Below are positions 12,477-17,306 of a stretch of DNA of 64,000 nt, one piece after another; the first letter of the stretch is position 1; every line of letters begins with the position of its first letter. The stretch is from Candidatus Nomurabacteria bacterium (GTDB lineage Bacteria; Patescibacteriota; Minisyncoccia; Phycocordibacterales; UBA9973): assembly GCA_943350445.1 (NCBI GenBank), contig CALRAE010000002.1:2134-66133 (forward strand). Direction: 5' to 3'. The position numbers and the translations under genes are program-made. Under the pieces are notes generated by a model. That model searched no databases and was not told where the DNA came from. It was given only the letters and a program-made list of their open reading frames with translations.

Positions 12477-12704
12477 ATGGTAGTAAGAATGAGAAGTACA
12501 AAATCACATACAGGCAACCGACGTTCTCACCACGCTTTGAAGAGCACGAGTTTTTCCAAGTGCGAGAATTGCAAATCTTTGAAAAGACGTCACACTGTTT
12601 GTTCTGGTTGCGGTTTTTACCGAGGCAAGAAGGTTGTGGATCTAGTTAAAAAGACAGAAAAGAAGCAAAAGAAAGCTAAAGCTAAGAAGGCGGAAACAAA
12701 GTAA
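12477..12704 (+). CDS. rpmF: 50S ribosomal protein bL32 with a Lys-rich C-terminal tail
   Basis: RRSHHAL motif and the C..C....C..C zinc-ribbon pattern typical of L32. Confidence 0.6.
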   Translation: MVVRMRSTKSHTGNRRSHHALKSTSFSKCENCKSLKRRHTVCSGCGFYRGKKVVDLVKKTEKKQKKAKAKKAETK

Positions 12705-12779
12705 ATCGCGCTTAGACCTTAGGCAATAGGCCCTAGCATAGAGCTAAAGCCTAGTACCTAGAGCCTAACGCCTAAACAA

Positions 12780-13724
12780 ATGGCAAATAGGCACCTCTCA
12801 AGATCAATAGTCCTACAAACCCTTTTCGAGTGGGATTTCTTGTCTGCTGATAAAAAGGCTGATACGTCTATTAAGGATGGCATCAAAGCTGCGCTAAATA
12901 GGAATTTGAAAGAATTTGCTCCTGGACTTGAGGATGATGATTTTGTGTCTTCTCTTATGAATGGTGTATTAGAAAAACATACCATTATAGATAAAATTAT
13001 AGAGAAAGCTGCGCCTGATTGGCCAATAGATAAAATTTCTGTTGTGGATAGAAATATTTTAAGAATTGGTTTAACAGAGCTTTTGTTTGGTGACAGATCA
13101 CAAGTCCCCCCAAAGGTGGCTATCAATGAAGCAATTGAACTAGCAAAAACTTTCGGCGGAGAAAATTCTGGTAAATTTATAAATGGAGTTCTCGGAGCTG
13201 TGTACAAAGAAATGGGCGAGCCAGATAAGGGACACCAAAAAGCTCCAGAAAAAAATAAAAACAATCGGGGGAAGGATGCGAAAGAGCCGGTAGACATATC
13301 GACTTTGCCTGTAGAGAATCTTGGTGGTGCGCTTGTGTATGCTAGAAAGGATGGGTCTATAATGTTTGCTCTGGTTCACGATGTATTTGGTTATTGGACT
13401 TTATCAAAGGGAAAGGTTGAGGAATCTGAAAACATTGAAGAGGGTGCATCAGAGGCTATTAAGAAAGAAATAGGCTTGGATATAAAAATAGAATCAAAAC
13501 TTGGTATAAATGAGTATGTCGCCACACATCCAACCAAAGGAAAGAGTTTAAAGAAGGTGGTTTACTTTTTAGCTTCGAGCGAGTATAAAGAGCTAGAGCT
13601 TGAGAAGTCTGGTGGACTGGACTCAGCTCGATGGTTCGAGATGTCTCTTGTTCCAGAGCTACGCATTTATAATGATATTATTCCACTTATTGCCAAAGCG
13701 GTTGAGATAATTAGTAAAAAATAA
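12780..13724 (+). CDS. nusB: Transcription antitermination factor NusB fused to a C-terminal Nudix-fold domain with a degenerate Nudix box
   Basis: The N-terminal ~140 aa have the NusB pattern (RHLSRSIVLQTLFEWDF). C-terminus reads GGALVYARKDGSIMFALV...GYWTLSKGKVEESENIEEGASEAIKKEIGL, i.e. GX5EX7 is kept but REUXEE is largely replaced (EAIKKE). Confidence 0.6.
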   Translation: MANRHLSRSIVLQTLFEWDFLSADKKADTSIKDGIKAALNRNLKEFAPGLEDDDFVSSLMNGVLEKHTIIDKIIEKAAPDWPIDKISVVDRNILRIGLTELLFGDRSQVPPKVAINEAIELAKTFGGENSGKFINGVLGAVYKEMGEPDKGHQKAPEKNKNNRGKDAKEPVDISTLPVENLGGALVYARKDGSIMFALVHDVFGYWTLSKGKVEESENIEEGASEAIKKEIGLDIKIESKLGINEYVATHPTKGKSLKKVVYFLASSEYKELELEKSGGLDSARWFEMSLVPELRIYNDIIPLIAKAVEIISKK

Positions 13725-14438
13725 TTGATTTTGCAAAATCACATGATTCAATTTTCAAATTTTGAGAAAAAAATAAAAATAATCTTTAAAGACAAAAATC
13801 TTTTGCAACAGGCTTTTATTCACCGTTCATATATAAATGAAAATCCATCGACCAATTTATCACACAATGAAAGGCTTGAATTTTTGGGTGATGCGGTACT
13901 CGAGCTAGTCGTCACAGATTTCTTGTATAAAAAATATCCTACATACACAGAGGGGGAACTAACGGCTCTGAGGTCTGCGCTAGTCAATGCTGTTATTATT
14001 TCTGAAGTTGCGACAGATCTAGGCATGAATGACTATCTGCTTTTATCTAAAGGCGAAACAAAAGACAAAGGTAAAGCGCGATCATATATTTTAGCTAATA
14101 CTTTTGAGGCATACATAGGAGCTTTGTACTTGGATCAAGGCATCGAAATAGTTGGTAAGTTTATAACTAAAACTCTTTTGCCGAAGACCGGAGAAATAGT
14201 TTCAAAGAAGCTCTGGCGCGATGCAAAATCCCTCGTGCAGGAAAAGGCGCAAGAATTTGTAAATGTCACTCCAGCATACAAGGTTCTCTCTGAATCTGGC
14301 CCTGACCATGACAAGCATTTCAATGTCGGTATCTACTTTGGTTCTACACTTGTAGGCGAAGGCAAGGGTCAATCCAAGCAAGAAGCAGAACAAAAAGCTG
14401 CTGAGTCTGCCCTAAAAGCTAAAAATTGGCTTGATTAG
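13725..14438 (+). CDS. rnc: Ribonuclease III
   Basis: Signature ERLEFLGDAVLELVV. C-terminal dsRBD. Confidence 0.85.
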   Translation: MILQNHMIQFSNFEKKIKIIFKDKNLLQQAFIHRSYINENPSTNLSHNERLEFLGDAVLELVVTDFLYKKYPTYTEGELTALRSALVNAVIISEVATDLGMNDYLLLSKGETKDKGKARSYILANTFEAYIGALYLDQGIEIVGKFITKTLLPKTGEIVSKKLWRDAKSLVQEKAQEFVNVTPAYKVLSESGPDHDKHFNVGIYFGSTLVGEGKGQSKQEAEQKAAESALKAKNWLD

Positions 14439-14463: not shown

Positions 14464-16596
14464 ATGAGGCTGAAAACTCTAGAATTAAACGGCTTTAAAT
14501 CTTTCGCACAGAAGACTGTTTTGGAGTTCGATAGTCCTGTCGTCTCTGTTGTCGGACCGAATGGTTCTGGTAAATCCAACGTGGTGGAAGCTATCCGCTA
14601 CGTCTTGGGTGAGCAGTCTATCAAGTCTATGCGTGGCAAGTCTGGCCTCGACCTCATCTTCAAGGGTTCTAAAACTTTGCCGAAAGGGTCAAAGGCGTCC
14701 GTCTCAATCTATTTCAATAATGCTGACAAAGTTTTTAAACTTTCTAACAATGACGGGGAAGATGTAAATTTAAATTATGAAACTATTAGTATTTCCCGTG
14801 AAGTTTTTTCTGATGGATTAAATAAATATATTTTAAATGGCTCAGAGGTTCGATTGAAAGATATTCACAACCTTTTGGCATCGGTGAACGTGGGTTCGAG
14901 TGGGCACCACATAATTTCTCAGGGCGAAGCGGACAGGATTTTGAACGCGAATGCACAAGATAGGCGCGAAATGGTGGAAGACGCACTTGGACTTAAAATT
15001 TATCAATATAAAATAAAGGACAGTGTCCGCAAGCTAGAACGTACGGAGACAAATATGAAGGAAGTGACGATGCTGCGTCGAGAGAATGCCCCTCACTTGA
15101 ATTTTTTAAGGAAGCAAGTTGAAAAGTTCGAGAAAGCAAAAGATATGCAGATGGAGCTCGCTACTTTATATCGAGAATATTTAAAGAGAGAAAGTTTGTA
15201 TTTAGATAAAGAAAAGGAAAATTTGTCGGTTGAAAGGCATAATATTTCTGAAGAATTAAAAAGTGTCGCTAGCAAAATCTCTGTCACAGAAGATGCAAAT
15301 TCTATTGTAGGTAATAAAAAAATAGAAGAATTGAGGGTTGTAGAGCAGGCAATAAATGCTGTACGTGCTAGTAAAAGTGAAATGGAACGTAAGCTGGGCC
15401 GTATCGAAGGAATGATAGAAGCCAAGCAGAATAGGCCGAGGGTTTCTTCCGGTAGATGTCCGACGTGCGGAAAGGAGATGGGTGATGTGAGCCAAGAACT
15501 AATAGAAAGTAGGCAAAACAATGAAAAAGAGCTCGAAGATTTAAAAAGATCTCAAGGTGAGATCGTGCTCGAGATAGAGAGGAGGGGAGAGGAGGAGAGA
15601 AGACTTTTGCAATCCATTGAGGCGTTGAAGCAGGAGATAAATAAAGAAATGGAGGCTTTGCGTGATTTAGAAAAAGAAAAATTTAAATTTAAAGTCAGAC
15701 ATCAAGAACTTTCTTCAGCTTTAGAGATGGTGGCGATAAAGGAGTCTAACTTAAGAAGCCGAACTGAAAGTTTTGAAAATGAAATTAAAGAAGGCGTGGC
15801 GCTTATCGGGCATGAGATTTTAGCCTATAAAAATTATCAAATCGAAACTCAGGTAGAGGCGCACGTGGTAGAAGAGCAAAAGCGAAAAATCGAACGCCTA
15901 AAAATAAAATTAGAGGATGCGGGACTTGGCAATGGGGCGGAAGTGATGAAAGAATTTAAAGAAGTCTCTGAGCGAGATGGATTCTTGGCAAAAGAAATGG
16001 AGGATCTAACGAAGAGCATCGAAGCCTTACAAAAACTTATCGCGGACCTGAAAGAAAAGATAGACATTGAATTCAAAGAAGGCGTCAAAAAAATAAACGT
16101 CGAATTCCAAGAATTTTTCTCACTCATGTTTGGTGGAGGAACGGGGGAGCTAAACATCGTCCTAGAGAGCAAGAAGAAAAAGAATATTTCTGAAGAACTT
16201 GAGGGTGTGGTAGAAATGGAAGAAGAAAAAATAGCTTTTGAAAAGGGGATAGAGATAAACGTCTCGCTTCCACAAAAAAAGGTCAAAGAACTTCATGCGC
16301 TCTCTGGTGGTGAAAGATCTCTCACCTCTATCGCGCTCCTTTTTGCGATGTCCCAAGTTAACCCGCCGCCTTTTTTGGTTTTAGACGAGACAGATGCAGC
16401 TCTAGACGAGGCAAATTCCCGCAAGTATGGCGACATGCTCGAAAAGCTCTCAAAGCATTCCCAGCTCATCGTCGTGACCCACAACCGTGAGACGATGTCC
16501 CGCGCTGGCGTCCTCTATGGCGTGACCGTGGGCAGTAACGGCGCCTCTAAGCTCCTCTCAGTAAAATTCGACGAAGCCGCCGCTATTGCGAAGTAA
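14464..16596 (+). CDS. smc: SMC-family chromosome segregation ATPase, short form of 710 aa (RecN/SbcC not excluded)
   Basis: N-terminal LNGFKSFA...GPNGSGKSN. Coiled-coil middle. C-terminal LSGGERSLTSIALLFAM and LVLDETDAALDE. Confidence 0.65.
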   Translation: MRLKTLELNGFKSFAQKTVLEFDSPVVSVVGPNGSGKSNVVEAIRYVLGEQSIKSMRGKSGLDLIFKGSKTLPKGSKASVSIYFNNADKVFKLSNNDGEDVNLNYETISISREVFSDGLNKYILNGSEVRLKDIHNLLASVNVGSSGHHIISQGEADRILNANAQDRREMVEDALGLKIYQYKIKDSVRKLERTETNMKEVTMLRRENAPHLNFLRKQVEKFEKAKDMQMELATLYREYLKRESLYLDKEKENLSVERHNISEELKSVASKISVTEDANSIVGNKKIEELRVVEQAINAVRASKSEMERKLGRIEGMIEAKQNRPRVSSGRCPTCGKEMGDVSQELIESRQNNEKELEDLKRSQGEIVLEIERRGEEERRLLQSIEALKQEINKEMEALRDLEKEKFKFKVRHQELSSALEMVAIKESNLRSRTESFENEIKEGVALIGHEILAYKNYQIETQVEAHVVEEQKRKIERLKIKLEDAGLGNGAEVMKEFKEVSERDGFLAKEMEDLTKSIEALQKLIADLKEKIDIEFKEGVKKINVEFQEFFSLMFGGGTGELNIVLESKKKKNISEELEGVVEMEEEKIAFEKGIEINVSLPQKKVKELHALSGGERSLTSIALLFAMSQVNPPPFLVLDETDAALDEANSRKYGDMLEKLSKHSQLIVVTHNRETMSRAGVLYGVTVGSNGASKLLSVKFDEAAAIAK

Positions 16597-16616: not shown

Positions 16617-17306
16617 ATGAAAAATTCACAAAACGGTTTCGTTTCGCCTATTCTTTTAGGAATAATTGCCTTATTGGTAATTGGGGGTGGTGTGTACGTT
16701 TATAAGAATAAAAAAGAAAAAGCATCTGAAGCCAATGTTGAAACACAGCAATCAAATAAAAATCAACAACAGACAAATACACAAACTTCACCAGTTGCTA
16801 CTCAAAAAAATAATAATTCTGTGGTTCCTGCTCCAATTAAAACTCCTGATATAAAAAGCGTCCCACAAAATTTTTCAACCTATAATAATTCAGGTTTAAA
16901 ATTAAATTATCCAAAAAACTGGACAATTATCGAAGATCCATCAAGAAGTGATGATACTTTAATAGAGTTTAGTATAGAAACTCCGAAAACAGATACAAGT
17001 AGATATGGGAAGCTTTTCTTTCAGTTTGCAAAGAAAGGTGAACTACCTCTTAGTACTATGATGAAAGTTGAACAAAATACTTTAGAAAAAAGTGGGGCTA
17101 CAATTACAGAACCAATGCCGTTTGAATTTGCAGGAATGTCTGGAAATAGATTCACTGCAACACTCGTAGATAATACTGGAACTAAGTATGAAAGTCTTAT
17201 ATTTGTAAACGGCAGGCTTATTGTTAGTTTTGCTGGACGAATTAAGGGTGATTCTACTTATGATGATACTGTAATGAATATTATCAATTCTATCAAAATT
17301 CAATAG
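16617..17306 (+). CDS. Membrane-anchored hypothetical protein with a Q/N-rich linker
   Basis: N-terminal TM helix followed by low-complexity Q/N/T stretch, then a globular domain. No recognisable family. Confidence 0.35.
   Translation: MKNSQNGFVSPILLGIIALLVIGGGVYVYKNKKEKASEANVETQQSNKNQQQTNTQTSPVATQKNNNSVVPAPIKTPDIKSVPQNFSTYNNSGLKLNYPKNWTIIEDPSRSDDTLIEFSIETPKTDTSRYGKLFFQFAKKGELPLSTMMKVEQNTLEKSGATITEPMPFEFAGMSGNRFTATLVDNTGTKYESLIFVNGRLIVSFAGRIKGDSTYDDTVMNIINSIKIQ

What the first reader, a model, noticed from the sequence alone, without database searches (positions are those of the whole stretch)
12780..13724. NusB fused to a Nudix-fold domain whose catalytic Nudix box is degenerate
A single 314-aa ORF joins a canonical NusB N-terminal domain to a C-terminal Nudix fold (GGALVYARKDGSIMFALV..GYWTLSKGKVEESENIEEGASEAIKKEIGL). 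The GX5EX7 part of the Nudix box is retained, but the REUXEE catalytic glutamates are mostly replaced (EAIKKE). This suggests a nucleotide-binding but possibly non-hydrolytic module attached to the antitermination factor, and a potential link between (d)NDP-X/alarmone sensing and rRNA antitermination. The fusion sits directly upstream of rnc.
Basis: partly seen in the sequence, partly recalled or inferred. Interest (0 to 1): 0.55.

Follow-up and report, generated by a model that had tools for sequence, protein, structure and literature searches.

The report
NusB fused to non-catalytic Nudix
In this tiny-genome (Parcubacteria-type) bacterium the transcription factor NusB carries a flexibly tethered Nudix domain that keeps its nucleotide-binding pocket but has lost key catalytic residues, and the same fusion, apparently undescribed, turns up in hundreds of related genomes.

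Summary
Window 12780-13724 (+) is one uninterrupted 314-aa ORF. Residues 1-145 are a bona fide NusB domain, 146-180 a disordered Lys/Glu/Pro-rich linker, and 181-314 a complete Nudix fold. The Nudix box reads GKVEESENIEEGASEAIKKEIGL: R15, E16 and E19 are replaced (E, A, K) and only E20 is kept. The E16-to-Ala change is the same substitution as human NUDT2 E58A, which is inactive.

New findings:
- The fusion recurs across the Parcubacteria group: all 80 best species-level loci carry it (one has an in-frame stop at the domain junction), and 421 distinct proteins were collected. The gene order rpmF-fusion-rnc-smc is fixed.
- The Nudix half most resembles small ApnA hydrolases (Aquifex, Thermus Ndx1, NUDT2).
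- Box degeneracy is mosaic, not a family trait. About 14-43% of members, depending on the sample, keep all three catalytic Glu, and the state changed many times.
- The pocket residues K210, Y246, K258, Y297, W206 and W285 are 95-100% conserved. The domain is under purifying selection as strong as NusB (dN/dS about 0.075 for each half).

Best reading: a tethered nucleotide- or RNA-5'-end-binding module for which hydrolysis is dispensable. The ligand and role are inferred, not shown. I found no literature describing the fusion. I rate it a new variant of known kinds.

The parts
12477..12704 (+). rpmF (ribosomal protein L32), the conserved upstream neighbour
   Evidence: Pfam Ribosomal_L32p E=1.4e-16. 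It lies directly upstream of the fusion in 75 of 75 related loci that can be judged.
12705..12779 (+). rpmF-nusB spacer made of short CCTA(G/A)-type repeats; it has no boxA-like motif, unlike about a third of the related loci
   Evidence: Sequence. Comparison of upstream regions. The function of the repeats is unexplained.
12780..13724 (+). nusB-Nudix fusion gene, 314 aa plus the TAA stop
12780..13214 (+). NusB domain (aa 1-145), all-helical
   Evidence: PF01029 E=2e-35 and TIGR01951 above its cut-off. AF2 models helices over aa 4-145. Foldseek gives TM 0.83 and 35% identity to T. maritima NusB. Sequence matches to NusB chains from the NusB-NusE-boxA complex and from antitermination complexes.
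13215..13319 (+). Flexible linker (aa 146-180), Lys/Glu/Pro-rich
   Evidence: pLDDT is below 50 for aa 148-170 and pTM is 0.48. Across the family the linker has a median of 27 aa (range 14-44), 21% K, 15% E, 10% P and a net charge near 0. It is the least conserved region.
13320..13721 (+). Nudix-fold domain (aa 181-314) of the small ApnA-hydrolase type
   Evidence: PF00293 E=4.3e-9 when scanned alone. Foldseek TM 0.86 to Aquifex Ap4A hydrolase 3i7u and 0.83 to Thermus Ndx1. phmmer against PDB gives 3i7u and 1vc8 as best hits.
13410..13478 (+). Degenerate Nudix box (aa 211-233): E225 for R15, A226 for E16, K229 for E19; E230 (E20) is kept
   Evidence: A226 aligns with NUDT2 E58, which is Ala in the mutant chains of PDB entries 4ick, 4ijx and 1xsa.
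13725..14438 (+). rnc (RNase III), abutting the fusion's stop codon and probably co-transcribed
   Evidence: Pfam Ribonucleas_3_3 E=7.6e-37 plus a dsrm domain. It lies within 200 nt downstream in 74 of 78 related loci, and further downstream on the same strand in the other 4.
14464..16596 (+). Short SMC-like ATPase (710 aa), the conserved fourth gene of the cluster
   Evidence: Pfam SMC_N E=5.9e-59. It follows rnc in most of the related loci.

Best explanation
The gene encodes a genuine NusB, the boxA-RNA-binding partner of ribosomal protein S10 in antitermination. An unstructured linker of about 35 residues tethers it to a small Nudix domain of the Ap4A/ApnA-hydrolase type (NUDT2, Aquifex, Ndx1).

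Supported by the sequence evidence: the domain is a complete fold under strong purifying selection. It keeps the residues that, in NUDT2, hold the alpha (P1) phosphate and sandwich the adenine. It has lost three of the four key Nudix-box residues, including the Glu whose mutation to Ala inactivates NUDT2.

Inferred: in this organism the domain binds an adenine-nucleotide polyphosphate moiety and hydrolyses it poorly or not at all.

Proposed mechanism: the module works by tethering rather than by allostery. It grips a 5'-terminal nucleotide polyphosphate, meaning either the 5'-PPP or NpnN-capped end of the nascent boxA-containing leader RNA or, less likely, free ApnA or ATP. That gives NusB a second anchoring point on or near the transcript it acts on. 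Hydrolysis is dispensable for this role, which is why it has been lost repeatedly in the family. In relatives with an intact box the same module probably also cleaves the 5' polyphosphate or cap, preparing the leader for decay after RNase III cleavage.

My confidence is about 0.8 that this is NusB plus a catalytically impaired but ligand-binding ApnA-hydrolase-like module. It is about 0.35 to 0.4 that it works specifically by RNA-5'-end tethering. The confidence field gives the figure for the full mechanistic statement.
For: - Domain identities and folds.
- Residue equivalences to human NUDT2: K210=K42, Y246=Y82, K258=K89, Y297=F128, W206=W38, W285=W116, A226=E58, K229=E61, E230=E62, E225=R57.
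- In NUDT2, K42 and Y82 bind the P1 sulphate, and the adenine stacks on Y82 and F128 (PMC4734340).
- NUDT2 converts PPP-RNA to P-RNA, and its E58A mutant does not (PMC8616924).
- In 421 distinct fusions, K210 is 100% conserved, Y246 99%, K258 95%, Y297 99%, W206 100% and W285 99%. By contrast E16 is 52%, E19 66% and E20 96%.
- The Nudix box is less conserved than the rest of the domain: 59% against 72% pairwise identity in close relatives, and 29% against 32% among representatives.
- The non-box part of the domain evolves at the same rate relative to NusB (about 1.0 to 1.5 times) whether the box is intact, degenerate or severely degenerate.
- dN/dS for the window against L001 is 0.076 for the NusB half and 0.075 for the Nudix half.
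- On a tree built from the NusB half only, the intact/degenerate state changes about 73 times across 359 sequences.
- In 174 of 235 degenerate members a Lys or Arg occupies a former metal-ligand position.
- The linker is disordered, varies in length (14-44 aa) and is poorly conserved.
- The fusion and the rpmF-fusion-rnc order recur in all 80 best species-level loci.
- A boxA-like motif lies a median of 12 nt upstream of the fusion's start codon in 29 of 79 loci, against 2% of background windows. This fits a working boxA-binding NusB in this clade.
- Precedents: CF Im25 is a Nudix fold lacking two box Glu that binds Ap4A at 2.4 uM without hydrolysis inside an RNA-processing complex (PMC2425470). 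SuhB is an enzyme-fold subunit required to load NusB/E onto the rrn complex (PMC6614801).
Against: - No binding or activity data exist for any member.
- Residue equivalences come from sequence alignment. I could not inspect model coordinates, so the pocket and metal geometry were not checked.
- E20, E7 and G1 are retained, so residual or non-canonical catalysis is possible. Some Nudix enzymes place their catalytic base outside the box.
- A large minority of family members have a perfect box, so hydrolysis may be the primary function, with loss tolerated only where another enzyme compensates.
- The window contains no rRNA operon or boxA, and this gene's own upstream region lacks the boxA-like motif.
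- The distance from the transcript 5' end to boxA is unknown in these organisms.
- The count of independent losses rests on a neighbour-joining tree of a short domain and is probably inflated.
Confidence: 0.4

Rival explanations
1. Small-molecule sensor. The Nudix domain binds a free dinucleoside polyphosphate or another nucleotide signal (Ap4A, ATP, ADP-ribose) and thereby switches NusB activity, coupling rRNA antitermination to nucleotide or stress status.
For: The nucleotide pocket is conserved while the catalytic residues erode. There are precedents for non-catalytic Nudix sensors: the NrtR Nudix domain appears among the structural hits at TM 0.67, CF Im25 binds Ap4A without hydrolysing it, and non-catalytic Nudix domains typically sit in multidomain proteins (PMC5389931).
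Against: The model gives no defined interdomain interface (pTM 0.48). The linker is disordered, ranges from 14 to 44 aa and is poorly conserved, which is a poor basis for allosteric coupling. Members with a fully active-looking box would destroy their own signal. No ligand is known.
Confidence: 0.22
2. Housekeeping enzyme fused for co-expression. The Nudix domain is the cell's Ap4A hydrolase or RppH-type RNA pyrophosphohydrolase, joined to NusB in a streamlined genome. In this organism it has been inactivated or weakened, possibly because another enzyme took over.
For: Between 14% and 43% of members keep a canonical box. The closest homologues are active ApnA hydrolases. NUDT2-type enzymes also act as RNA 5'-phosphatases. 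The gene sits in an operon with RNase III. No other Nudix ORF lies in this 64-kb window.
Against: If catalysis were the selected function, the box should be the best-conserved part of the domain, and it is the least. Members with a degenerate box show no relaxation elsewhere in the domain, and dN/dS is about 0.075. Retention of the fusion in every locus examined, over very deep divergence, argues for a function linked to NusB.
Confidence: 0.15
3. Protein-protein scaffold. The Nudix fold is a structural subunit of the antitermination complex, playing a SuhB-like role in bridging NusA, S10, RNA polymerase or RNase III. Nucleotide binding is irrelevant to this role.
For: SuhB shows that an enzyme fold can serve as an architectural subunit needed for NusB/E integration (PMC6614801). 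The catalytic residues of the fusion's Nudix domain are labile. Nudix domains can mediate protein-protein contacts.
Against: The most conserved residues are precisely the equivalents of the nucleotide-contacting residues of NUDT2, not an alternative surface. Whether suhB is present or absent in these genomes could not be tested here.
Confidence: 0.12
4. Still an active hydrolase that uses a non-canonical catalytic arrangement. E230 and E217, together with neighbouring acidic residues such as E214, E215, E220, E221 or D299, bind metal and activate water.
For: E20 is 96% conserved, E7 85% and G1 97%. The loop and helix of the box are rich in Glu. From general knowledge, some Nudix-family enzymes with modified boxes remain catalytic, for example GDP-mannose mannosyl hydrolase.
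Against: The single E58A change, equivalent to A226 here, abolishes NUDT2 activity on PPP-RNA. The window protein additionally has Lys at E19 and Glu at R15. In most degenerate members Lys or Arg sits at a metal-ligand position.
Confidence: 0.1

Closest known systems
NusB (TIGR01951 / PF01029), e.g. T. maritima, Aquifex and E. coli NusB
   Same: The N-terminal 145 aa pass the equivalog model. They are 35% identical to T. maritima NusB with TM 0.83, and carry the conserved PPKVAINEAIELAK..FG...S.KF.NGVLG region.
   Different: The solved NusB chains matched here are 139-156 aa, so they are essentially the NusB domain alone. This protein carries an extra 170 aa: a linker and a Nudix domain.
Small Nudix ApnA hydrolases: Aquifex Ap4A hydrolase (3i7u), Thermus Ndx1 (1vc8), human NUDT2 and C. 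elegans Ap4A hydrolase
   Same: These are the best sequence and structure matches (TM 0.83 to 0.86). They share the W-T-x-x-K-G strand, the Y82-like and F128-like aromatic residues and the K42/K89-like lysines.
   Different: Those enzymes are free-standing with a full REUXEE box. Here R15, E16 and E19 are replaced, and the E16 change is the natural equivalent of the inactivating NUDT2 E58A mutation. The domain is fused to NusB.
CF Im25 / NUDT21, the Nudix-fold subunit of mammalian cleavage factor Im
   Same: It has a Nudix fold lacking two box glutamates. It binds Ap4A and ATP but does not hydrolyse them, and it works inside an RNA-processing or transcription-coupled machine (PMC2425470).
   Different: It is eukaryotic. 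Different Glu positions are lost (2nd and 4th there, 2nd and 3rd here). It is not a close homologue. CF Im25 binds RNA through the Nudix domain itself, and whether that happens here is unknown.
NrtR, a Nudix-related transcriptional regulator
   Same: A Nudix domain fused to a nucleic-acid-binding regulatory domain and used for ligand sensing (ADP-ribose). Its Nudix domain appears among the structural hits.
   Different: NrtR belongs to the ADP-ribose-pyrophosphatase lineage and is fused to a DNA-binding winged helix in a dimeric, allosterically coupled architecture (the last point from general knowledge). Here the lineage is ApnA-hydrolase, the partner binds RNA, and the linker is a floppy tether. 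Structural similarity is weaker (TM 0.67 against 0.86).
RsmB/Sun, a NusB-like domain fused to an rRNA methyltransferase
   Same: It is a precedent for a NusB-fold RNA-targeting domain fused to an enzyme fold that acts on RNA. The window protein gives weak NusB-region hits to RsmB models.
   Different: All RsmB scores are far below their cut-offs (56 against 319 bits). There is no methyltransferase domain, and the NusB half is an equivalog-level true NusB.
SuhB in the E. coli rrn antitermination complex
   Same: An enzyme-fold protein that works together with NusB/E on boxA-containing leader RNA and is required for their stable integration (PMC6614801).
   Different: SuhB is an unrelated fold (inositol monophosphatase) and a separate polypeptide. 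It binds the NusA AR2 domain. Any functional equivalence is speculative.

Membership tests
NusB (PF01029 / TIGR01951) | Sequence profile match above the curated thresholds | tested here: met
   PF01029 scores 122.5 bits against 23.1. TIGR01951 equivalog scores 123.4 bits against 88.35.
NusB (PF01029 / TIGR01951) | All-helical NusB fold | tested here: met
   AF2 models seven helices over aa 4-145 with high pLDDT. Foldseek gives TM 0.83 to T. maritima NusB and 0.79 to M. tuberculosis NusB.
NusB (PF01029 / TIGR01951) | Binds boxA RNA as a heterodimer with S10 (NusE) and supports antitermination | not testable with these tools
   Only indirect evidence is available. There are matches to NusB chains from boxA and antitermination complexes. 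A boxA-like motif lies upstream of the orthologous gene in 29 of 79 loci. There is no rRNA operon in the window.
Nudix hydrolase superfamily (PF00293) | Alpha/beta/alpha Nudix fold | tested here: met
   PF00293 scores 34.3 to 36.9 bits against 21.1. Foldseek probability is 1.00 with TM up to 0.86 to Nudix enzymes.
Nudix hydrolase superfamily (PF00293) | Complete Nudix box GX5EX7REUXEEXGU | tested here: not met
   The window has G1, E7, U17, E20, G22 and U23, but R15 is E, E16 is A and E19 is K.
Nudix hydrolase superfamily (PF00293) | Divalent-metal-dependent pyrophosphohydrolase activity | not testable with these tools
   Activity is predicted to be lost or strongly reduced, by analogy with NUDT2 E58A. 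This needs an enzymatic assay.
NUDT2/Aquifex/Ndx1-type ApnA hydrolases | Closest sequence and structural neighbours are ApnA hydrolases | tested here: met
   phmmer best hits are 3i7u and 1vc8. Foldseek best hits are 3i7u, MutT1/Rv2985, 1vc8, 1ktg and 4ijx.
NUDT2/Aquifex/Ndx1-type ApnA hydrolases | P1-phosphate ligands (Lys42, Tyr82, Lys89 in NUDT2) and the adenine-stacking aromatic pair (Tyr82, Phe128) | tested here: met
   K210, Y246, K258 and Y297 align with these residues and are 95-100% conserved in 421 fusions. Their roles come from PMC4734340. This was tested by alignment only, not by 3D geometry.
NUDT2/Aquifex/Ndx1-type ApnA hydrolases | Catalytic box glutamates (NUDT2 E58, E61, E62) | tested here: not met
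   The window has A226, K229 and E230. Only the last glutamate is kept.
Non-catalytic Nudix ligand-binding modules (CF Im25, NrtR, TRPM2 NUDT9-H type); a functional class, not a homologous family | Nudix fold with an incomplete box, embedded in a multidomain protein or complex, that binds its ligand without hydrolysing it | tested here: inconclusive
   The fold, the incomplete box and the multidomain context are met. Binding without hydrolysis is only inferred from conservation patterns.
RppH-type RNA pyrophosphohydrolase | Profile or structure match to RppH, and activity on 5'-PPP RNA | tested here: not met
   NCBIfam RNA pyrophosphohydrolase gives E=0.1 and 12.5 bits against a cut-off of 118. 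BdRppH gives TM 0.58, lower than the ApnA hydrolases. Activity cannot be tested here.
RsmB/Sun | NusB-like N-terminal domain plus a C-terminal SAM-dependent m5C methyltransferase | tested here: not met
   RsmB models score 56 bits or less against cut-offs of 269 to 540, and the matches are confined to the NusB region. There is no methyltransferase domain.

The most novel reading that the evidence does not exclude
NusB in Parcubacteria carries a built-in reader of the RNA 5' end. The Nudix module clamps the 5'-triphosphate or Np4A-capped first nucleotide of the nascent boxA-containing leader. This gives bivalent (5' end plus boxA) loading of the antitermination factor and may replace SuhB. Members with an intact box additionally decap or dephosphorylate the leader to trigger its decay after RNase III cleavage. 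This would be a direct mechanical link between RNA 5'-end chemistry and processive antitermination or rRNA maturation, and a natural series of enzyme-to-reader transitions within one family.
Probability: 0.25. Interest if true: 0.8.

Novelty: new variant of a known kind. Interest (0 to 1): 0.55.

Why it matters
NusB is a universal, intensively studied antitermination and ribosome-biogenesis factor, and it is normally a single-domain protein. A fusion to an ApnA-hydrolase-like Nudix module that recurs throughout a huge, uncultivated bacterial radiation suggests an unrecognised input into the Nus complex: either RNA 5'-end status or dinucleoside polyphosphates. Those organisms have minimal genomes, so every retained domain is informative.

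The family is also a natural experiment in the evolution of pseudoenzymes. The catalytic glutamates have been lost dozens of times while the ligand pocket and the fold remain under selection as strong as that on NusB itself. This gives matched active-looking and inactive-looking orthologues for biochemistry.

Current annotation calls these proteins simply NusB, or in one case 8-oxo-dGTP diphosphatase, and so hides the second domain. I found no description of the fusion in four full-text searches.

Tried and rejected
- Two genes or a frameshift: rejected. The ORF is continuous and 79 of 80 orthologous loci are single ORFs. The exception is L025, which has a TAA at the domain junction.
- Decaying pseudo-domain: rejected. 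dN/dS is about 0.075, equal to NusB, and degenerate-box members show no relaxation.
- Degeneracy as a trait of the whole family: rejected. Between 14% and 43% of members are canonical, depending on the sample.
- Close stand-alone relatives, as evidence of a split-gene ancestor: the high-identity short hits are fragments. P0125 starts at a contig end and is followed by rnc. A genuine stand-alone relative, P0146, lies in a mobile-element-like context and says little about the origin of the domain.
- The listing of cluster members returned almost no taxon names.
- An Rfam scan of the window found only two tRNAs. There is no rRNA leader or boxA to connect with NusB.
- A local HMM search found no second Nudix ORF in the window.
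- Literature searches for NusB with Nudix, and for NusB or Nudix in Patescibacteria or Parcubacteria, returned nothing relevant. The Nudix-clan review does not mention NusB.
- I could not confirm in the SuhB paper I checked that SuhB's catalytic activity is dispensable, so I do not claim it.
Full report
**1. The observation**

Window 12780-13724 (+) is one uninterrupted ORF of 314 aa. Pfam places NusB (PF01029) on aa 7-143 (E=2e-35, 122.5 bits, cut-off 23.1) and NUDIX (PF00293) on aa 203-298 (E=2.7e-8, 34.3 bits, cut-off 21.1). Each half still passes when scanned alone. The NCBIfam equivalog model for NusB, TIGR01951, is exceeded at 123.4 bits against 88.35.

The Nudix box is aa 211-233 (nt 13410-13478): GKVEESENIEEGASEAIKKEIGL. 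Against the consensus GX5EX7REUXEEXGU it keeps G1, E7, U17, E20, G22 and U23. It has E225 for R15, A226 for E16 and K229 for E19.

RNase III (rnc) starts immediately after the stop codon, at TTG 13725 or the in-frame ATG 13743. Ribosomal protein L32 (rpmF) lies 75 nt upstream, and a short SMC-like ATPase follows rnc.

**2. Structure**

An AlphaFold2 model built on a 119-sequence alignment has mean pLDDT 83.8. It shows a seven-helix NusB domain (aa 4-145) and an alpha/beta/alpha Nudix domain (aa 178-313), most of both modelled with confidence. Residues 148-170 fall below pLDDT 50, and pTM is only 0.48, so the model gives no fixed orientation between the domains.

Foldseek against the PDB matches the C-terminal half best to these structures:
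- Aquifex Ap4A hydrolase 3i7u (TM 0.86, rmsd 2.4 Å)
- Thermus Ndx1 Ap6A hydrolase (TM 0.83)
- mycobacterial MutT1/Rv2985, described as a Nudix diadenosine polyphosphatase
- DR1025, C. elegans and human Ap4A hydrolases, and Chlamydia CT771

The N-terminal half matches T. maritima NusB (TM 0.83, 35% identity) and M. tuberculosis NusB. Sequence searches of the PDB agree. The Nudix half hits 3i7u and 1vc8 first. The NusB half hits NusB chains, including those from the NusB-NusE-boxA complex (3r2c) and from the lambda-N and rrn antitermination complexes (5ms0, 6gov, 6tqn, 6tqo).

**3. The fusion recurs across a large clade**

- Three searches of the 5.8-billion-protein collection each returned about 8000 hits (the candidate ceiling), and every one of the 120 best listed in each, except P0116 in the first, carries both Pfam domains.
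- Source names include Nomura-, Kaiser-, Zambryski-, Vogel-, Lloyd-, Yonath-, Giovannoni-, Taga-, Niyogi- and Moranbacteria, plus Paceibacteria and Minisyncoccia. Nomurabacteria and Kaiserbacteria are separate candidate phyla within NCBI's Parcubacteria group.
- An exhaustive HMMER search of 1.84 billion cluster representatives with the Nudix half alone found 131 representatives at E<=1e-10. Of the best 150, 61 have a NusB N-terminus, and 43 are full-length fusions of 270-360 aa, down to about 27% identity in the Nudix half.
All 80 best loci encode the fusion over essentially the whole query.
- rpmF lies directly upstream in 75 of 75 loci that can be judged. rnc lies within 200 nt downstream in 74 of 78, and further downstream on the same strand in the remaining four.
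- High-identity "stand-alone" Nudix hits are gene fragments. P0125 begins at a contig end and is followed by rnc.

**4. The key pattern: a labile catalytic box and a fixed binding pocket**

The proportion of members with R15, E16, E19 and E20 all canonical (REEE) depends on the sample:

| Sample | Canonical REEE |
|---|---|
| 236 close relatives (59-91% identity) | 87 (37%) |
| 42 representatives of 50%-identity clusters | 6 (14%) |
| 80 species-level loci | 29 (36%) |

The other common states in the close set are KAKE 43, RAKE 23, KREE 21, RKEE 16 and REKE 14. The window's EAKE is unique in that set. Among the 42 representatives, E16 survives in 9.

In the pooled set of 421 distinct full-length fusions, 43% have all three glutamates. 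Conservation of individual residues in that set is:

| Residue | Conserved |
|---|---|
| E16 | 52% |
| E19 | 66% |
| E20 | 96% |
| K210 | 100% |
| W206 | 100% |
| Y246 | 99% |
| Y297 | 99% |
| W285 | 99% |
| K258 | 95% |

A MAFFT alignment with human NUDT2 and the C. elegans enzyme gives these equivalences:
- Pocket: K210=K42, Y246=Y82, K258=K89, Y297=F128 (Tyr in C. elegans), W206=W38, W285=W116.
- Box: E225=R57, A226=E58, K229=E61, E230=E62.

In NUDT2, Lys42 and Tyr82 hold the P1 sulphate or phosphate, with Lys89 as the neighbouring analogue. The adenine stacks between the loop-5 Tyr and Phe128 (PMC4734340). So the family conserves the nucleotide-contacting residues and lets the metal-binding glutamates drift.

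Further evidence points the same way:
- The box is less conserved than the rest of the domain: 59% against 72% mean pairwise identity in close relatives, and 29% against 32% among representatives. An active hydrolase family would be expected to show the opposite.
- The non-box part of the domain diverges at about 1.0 to 1.5 times the rate of the NusB half, whether the box is intact, degenerate or severely degenerate.
- dN/dS for the window gene against its closest locus with DNA (L001) is 0.076 for the NusB half and 0.075 for the Nudix half.
- On a neighbour-joining tree built from the NusB half only, parsimony needs about 73 changes between intact and degenerate states across 359 sequences, against a mean of 102 and a minimum of 91 when states are shuffled. 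Tree error probably inflates this count, but loss, and perhaps regain, has clearly happened many times.
- In 174 of 235 degenerate members a Lys or Arg sits at position 16 or 19. A16 with K19 occurs 73 times, and K16 or R16 with E19 occurs 63 times. My inference is that a positive side chain may replace the metal as the partner for phosphate.

**5. Is the window protein catalytically dead?**

This is inferred, not shown. A226 is the natural counterpart of NUDT2 E58A. The PDB chains of 4ick, 4ijx and 1xsa carry exactly that substitution. NUDT2 E58A fails to dephosphorylate PPP-RNA or pppGpA, whereas the wild-type enzyme trims PPP-RNA to P-RNA (PMC8616924). The window protein additionally has Lys at E19 and Glu at R15, and the R15-to-E change occurs in none of the 236 close relatives.

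Residual or non-canonical activity cannot be excluded, because E230, E217 and G211 remain. I could not inspect model coordinates, so the metal-site geometry was not checked.

**6. Mechanism**

The linker has a median of 27 aa (range 14-44), 21% Lys, 15% Glu, 10% Pro and a net charge near zero. It is the least conserved part of the protein and is predicted to be disordered. That fits a tether and does not fit an allosteric coupler.

I therefore favour a model in which the Nudix module supplies a second binding function next to NusB. It would grip an adenine-nucleotide polyphosphate. The most attractive candidate is the 5'-PPP or NpnN-capped end of the nascent boxA-bearing leader RNA, because NUDT2-type enzymes accept RNA 5' ends. 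Free ApnA or ATP is the alternative. Hydrolysis is unnecessary for anchoring and could even work against it, which would explain its repeated loss. Orthologues with an intact box could also process the 5' end, and the conserved operon with RNase III fits a role in handling the leader RNA.

Three precedents support the logic:
- CF Im25, a Nudix fold lacking two box glutamates, binds Ap4A (Kd 2.4 uM) without hydrolysis inside an RNA 3'-processing factor (PMC2425470).
- Non-catalytic Nudix domains typically sit in multidomain proteins (PMC5389931).
- SuhB is an enzyme-fold subunit that E. coli needs to integrate NusB/E into the rrn antitermination complex (PMC6614801).

The rivals cannot be excluded without experiments. 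They are a free-ligand sensor, a housekeeping hydrolase fused for co-expression, a pure protein scaffold, and non-canonical catalysis. The evidence for and against each, and a refuting result, are listed under the rival explanations.

**7. Comparison with known systems, and novelty**

The N-terminal half is a member of NusB by every criterion testable here. The C-terminal half is a member of the Nudix fold superfamily, and its nearest relatives are ApnA hydrolases. It fails the defining box test for a canonical hydrolase, so I file it as working like a non-catalytic Nudix binding module such as CF Im25 or NrtR, not as a member of those families.

RsmB is a precedent for a NusB-like domain fused to an RNA enzyme, but RsmB models score far below their cut-offs.

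Public sources annotate these proteins as NusB, or once as 8-oxo-dGTP diphosphatase. Four full-text literature searches and the Nudix-clan review turned up no description of the architecture. I rate it a new variant of known kinds, with interest 0.55.

**8. Caveats**

- The sequence samples are not phylogenetically balanced, so the percentages are descriptive.
- Residue equivalences rest on alignment.
- No rRNA operon or boxA lies in the window.
- Whole genomes could not be scanned, so three things remain unverified: whether the fusion is the only nusB, whether suhB is absent, and whether other Nudix, ApaH or YqeK enzymes are present.

Noticed in passing
L001-L080, the 45 nt upstream of the fusion start codon (e.g. 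L003, L006, L007, L011, L012...GTTCATTAATTT|ATG; L078: GTTCTTTAACTAAA|ATG): A boxA-like motif, G[CT]TC[ATC]TT, lies a median of 12 nt upstream of the nusB-Nudix ATG in 29 of 79 loci, against 2.0% of background windows (p about 4e-29). The stricter GYTCTTT occurs in 16 of 79 against 1.1%. The published boxA consensus is GYTCTTTAANA, and boxA upstream of suhB and rpsJ mediates Nus-factor autoregulation (PMC5725501). This suggests boxA-mediated autoregulation of nusB in Parcubacteria. The window's own upstream region lacks the motif.
   Followed up: partly
window 12705-12779 (also L004, L008, L009, L013, L026 at the same position): The rpmF-nusB spacer is built of short CCTA(G/A)-type repeats (...cctagcatagagctaaagcctagtacctagagcctaacgcctaaacaa). 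Relatives have clean tandem 7-mers in the same place: (CGCCTAA)x4 in L008 and L009, and (AACCTAG)n in L004, L013 and L026. Their function is unknown. They seem to occupy the place of the boxA-like element.
   Followed up: partly
L025 4406-4408 (CAYUGY010000018.1): A TAA replaces the GAA (Glu) codon exactly at the NusB/linker junction (...GAVYK*LGEPGK...). The Nudix half continues in the same frame with a canonical RELKEE box. This is the only one of the 80 loci where the fusion is interrupted. It could be a sequencing error, a recent split, or read-through.
   Followed up: partly
L081 4001-4453 (protein P0146): A genuine stand-alone 150-aa Nudix protein with a canonical box, 41% identical to the window's Nudix half, sits among genes for an integrase, a DNA methylase and a phage Rep_O-like protein. 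This looks like a mobile-element context.
   Followed up: no
window 14464-16596 (+): The SMC-like ORF downstream of rnc is only 710 aa, roughly 60% of the length I recall for bacterial SMC. The SMC_N head match is split between the two ends (aa 3-695), and there is a CxxC (GRCPTCGK) in the middle of the predicted coiled coil, which is reminiscent of a Rad50/SbcC zinc hook. It is conserved after rnc in most of the related loci.
   Followed up: no
record titles of L001, L003, L004 and many other loci; L045; protein P0428: Many loci are titled 'uncultured Candidatus Saccharibacteria', one is titled 'Flavobacteriaceae' (L045), and one protein is titled 'Marinimicrobia' (P0428). Yet they share 55-78% identity and identical synteny with Nomurabacteria and Paceibacteria loci. 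These are probably generic or mis-binned labels.
   Followed up: no
window 16617-17306 (+): A 229-aa ORF after the SMC-like gene has no Pfam hit at E<=1e-3. A relative was found downstream in only one related locus, L001.
   Followed up: no
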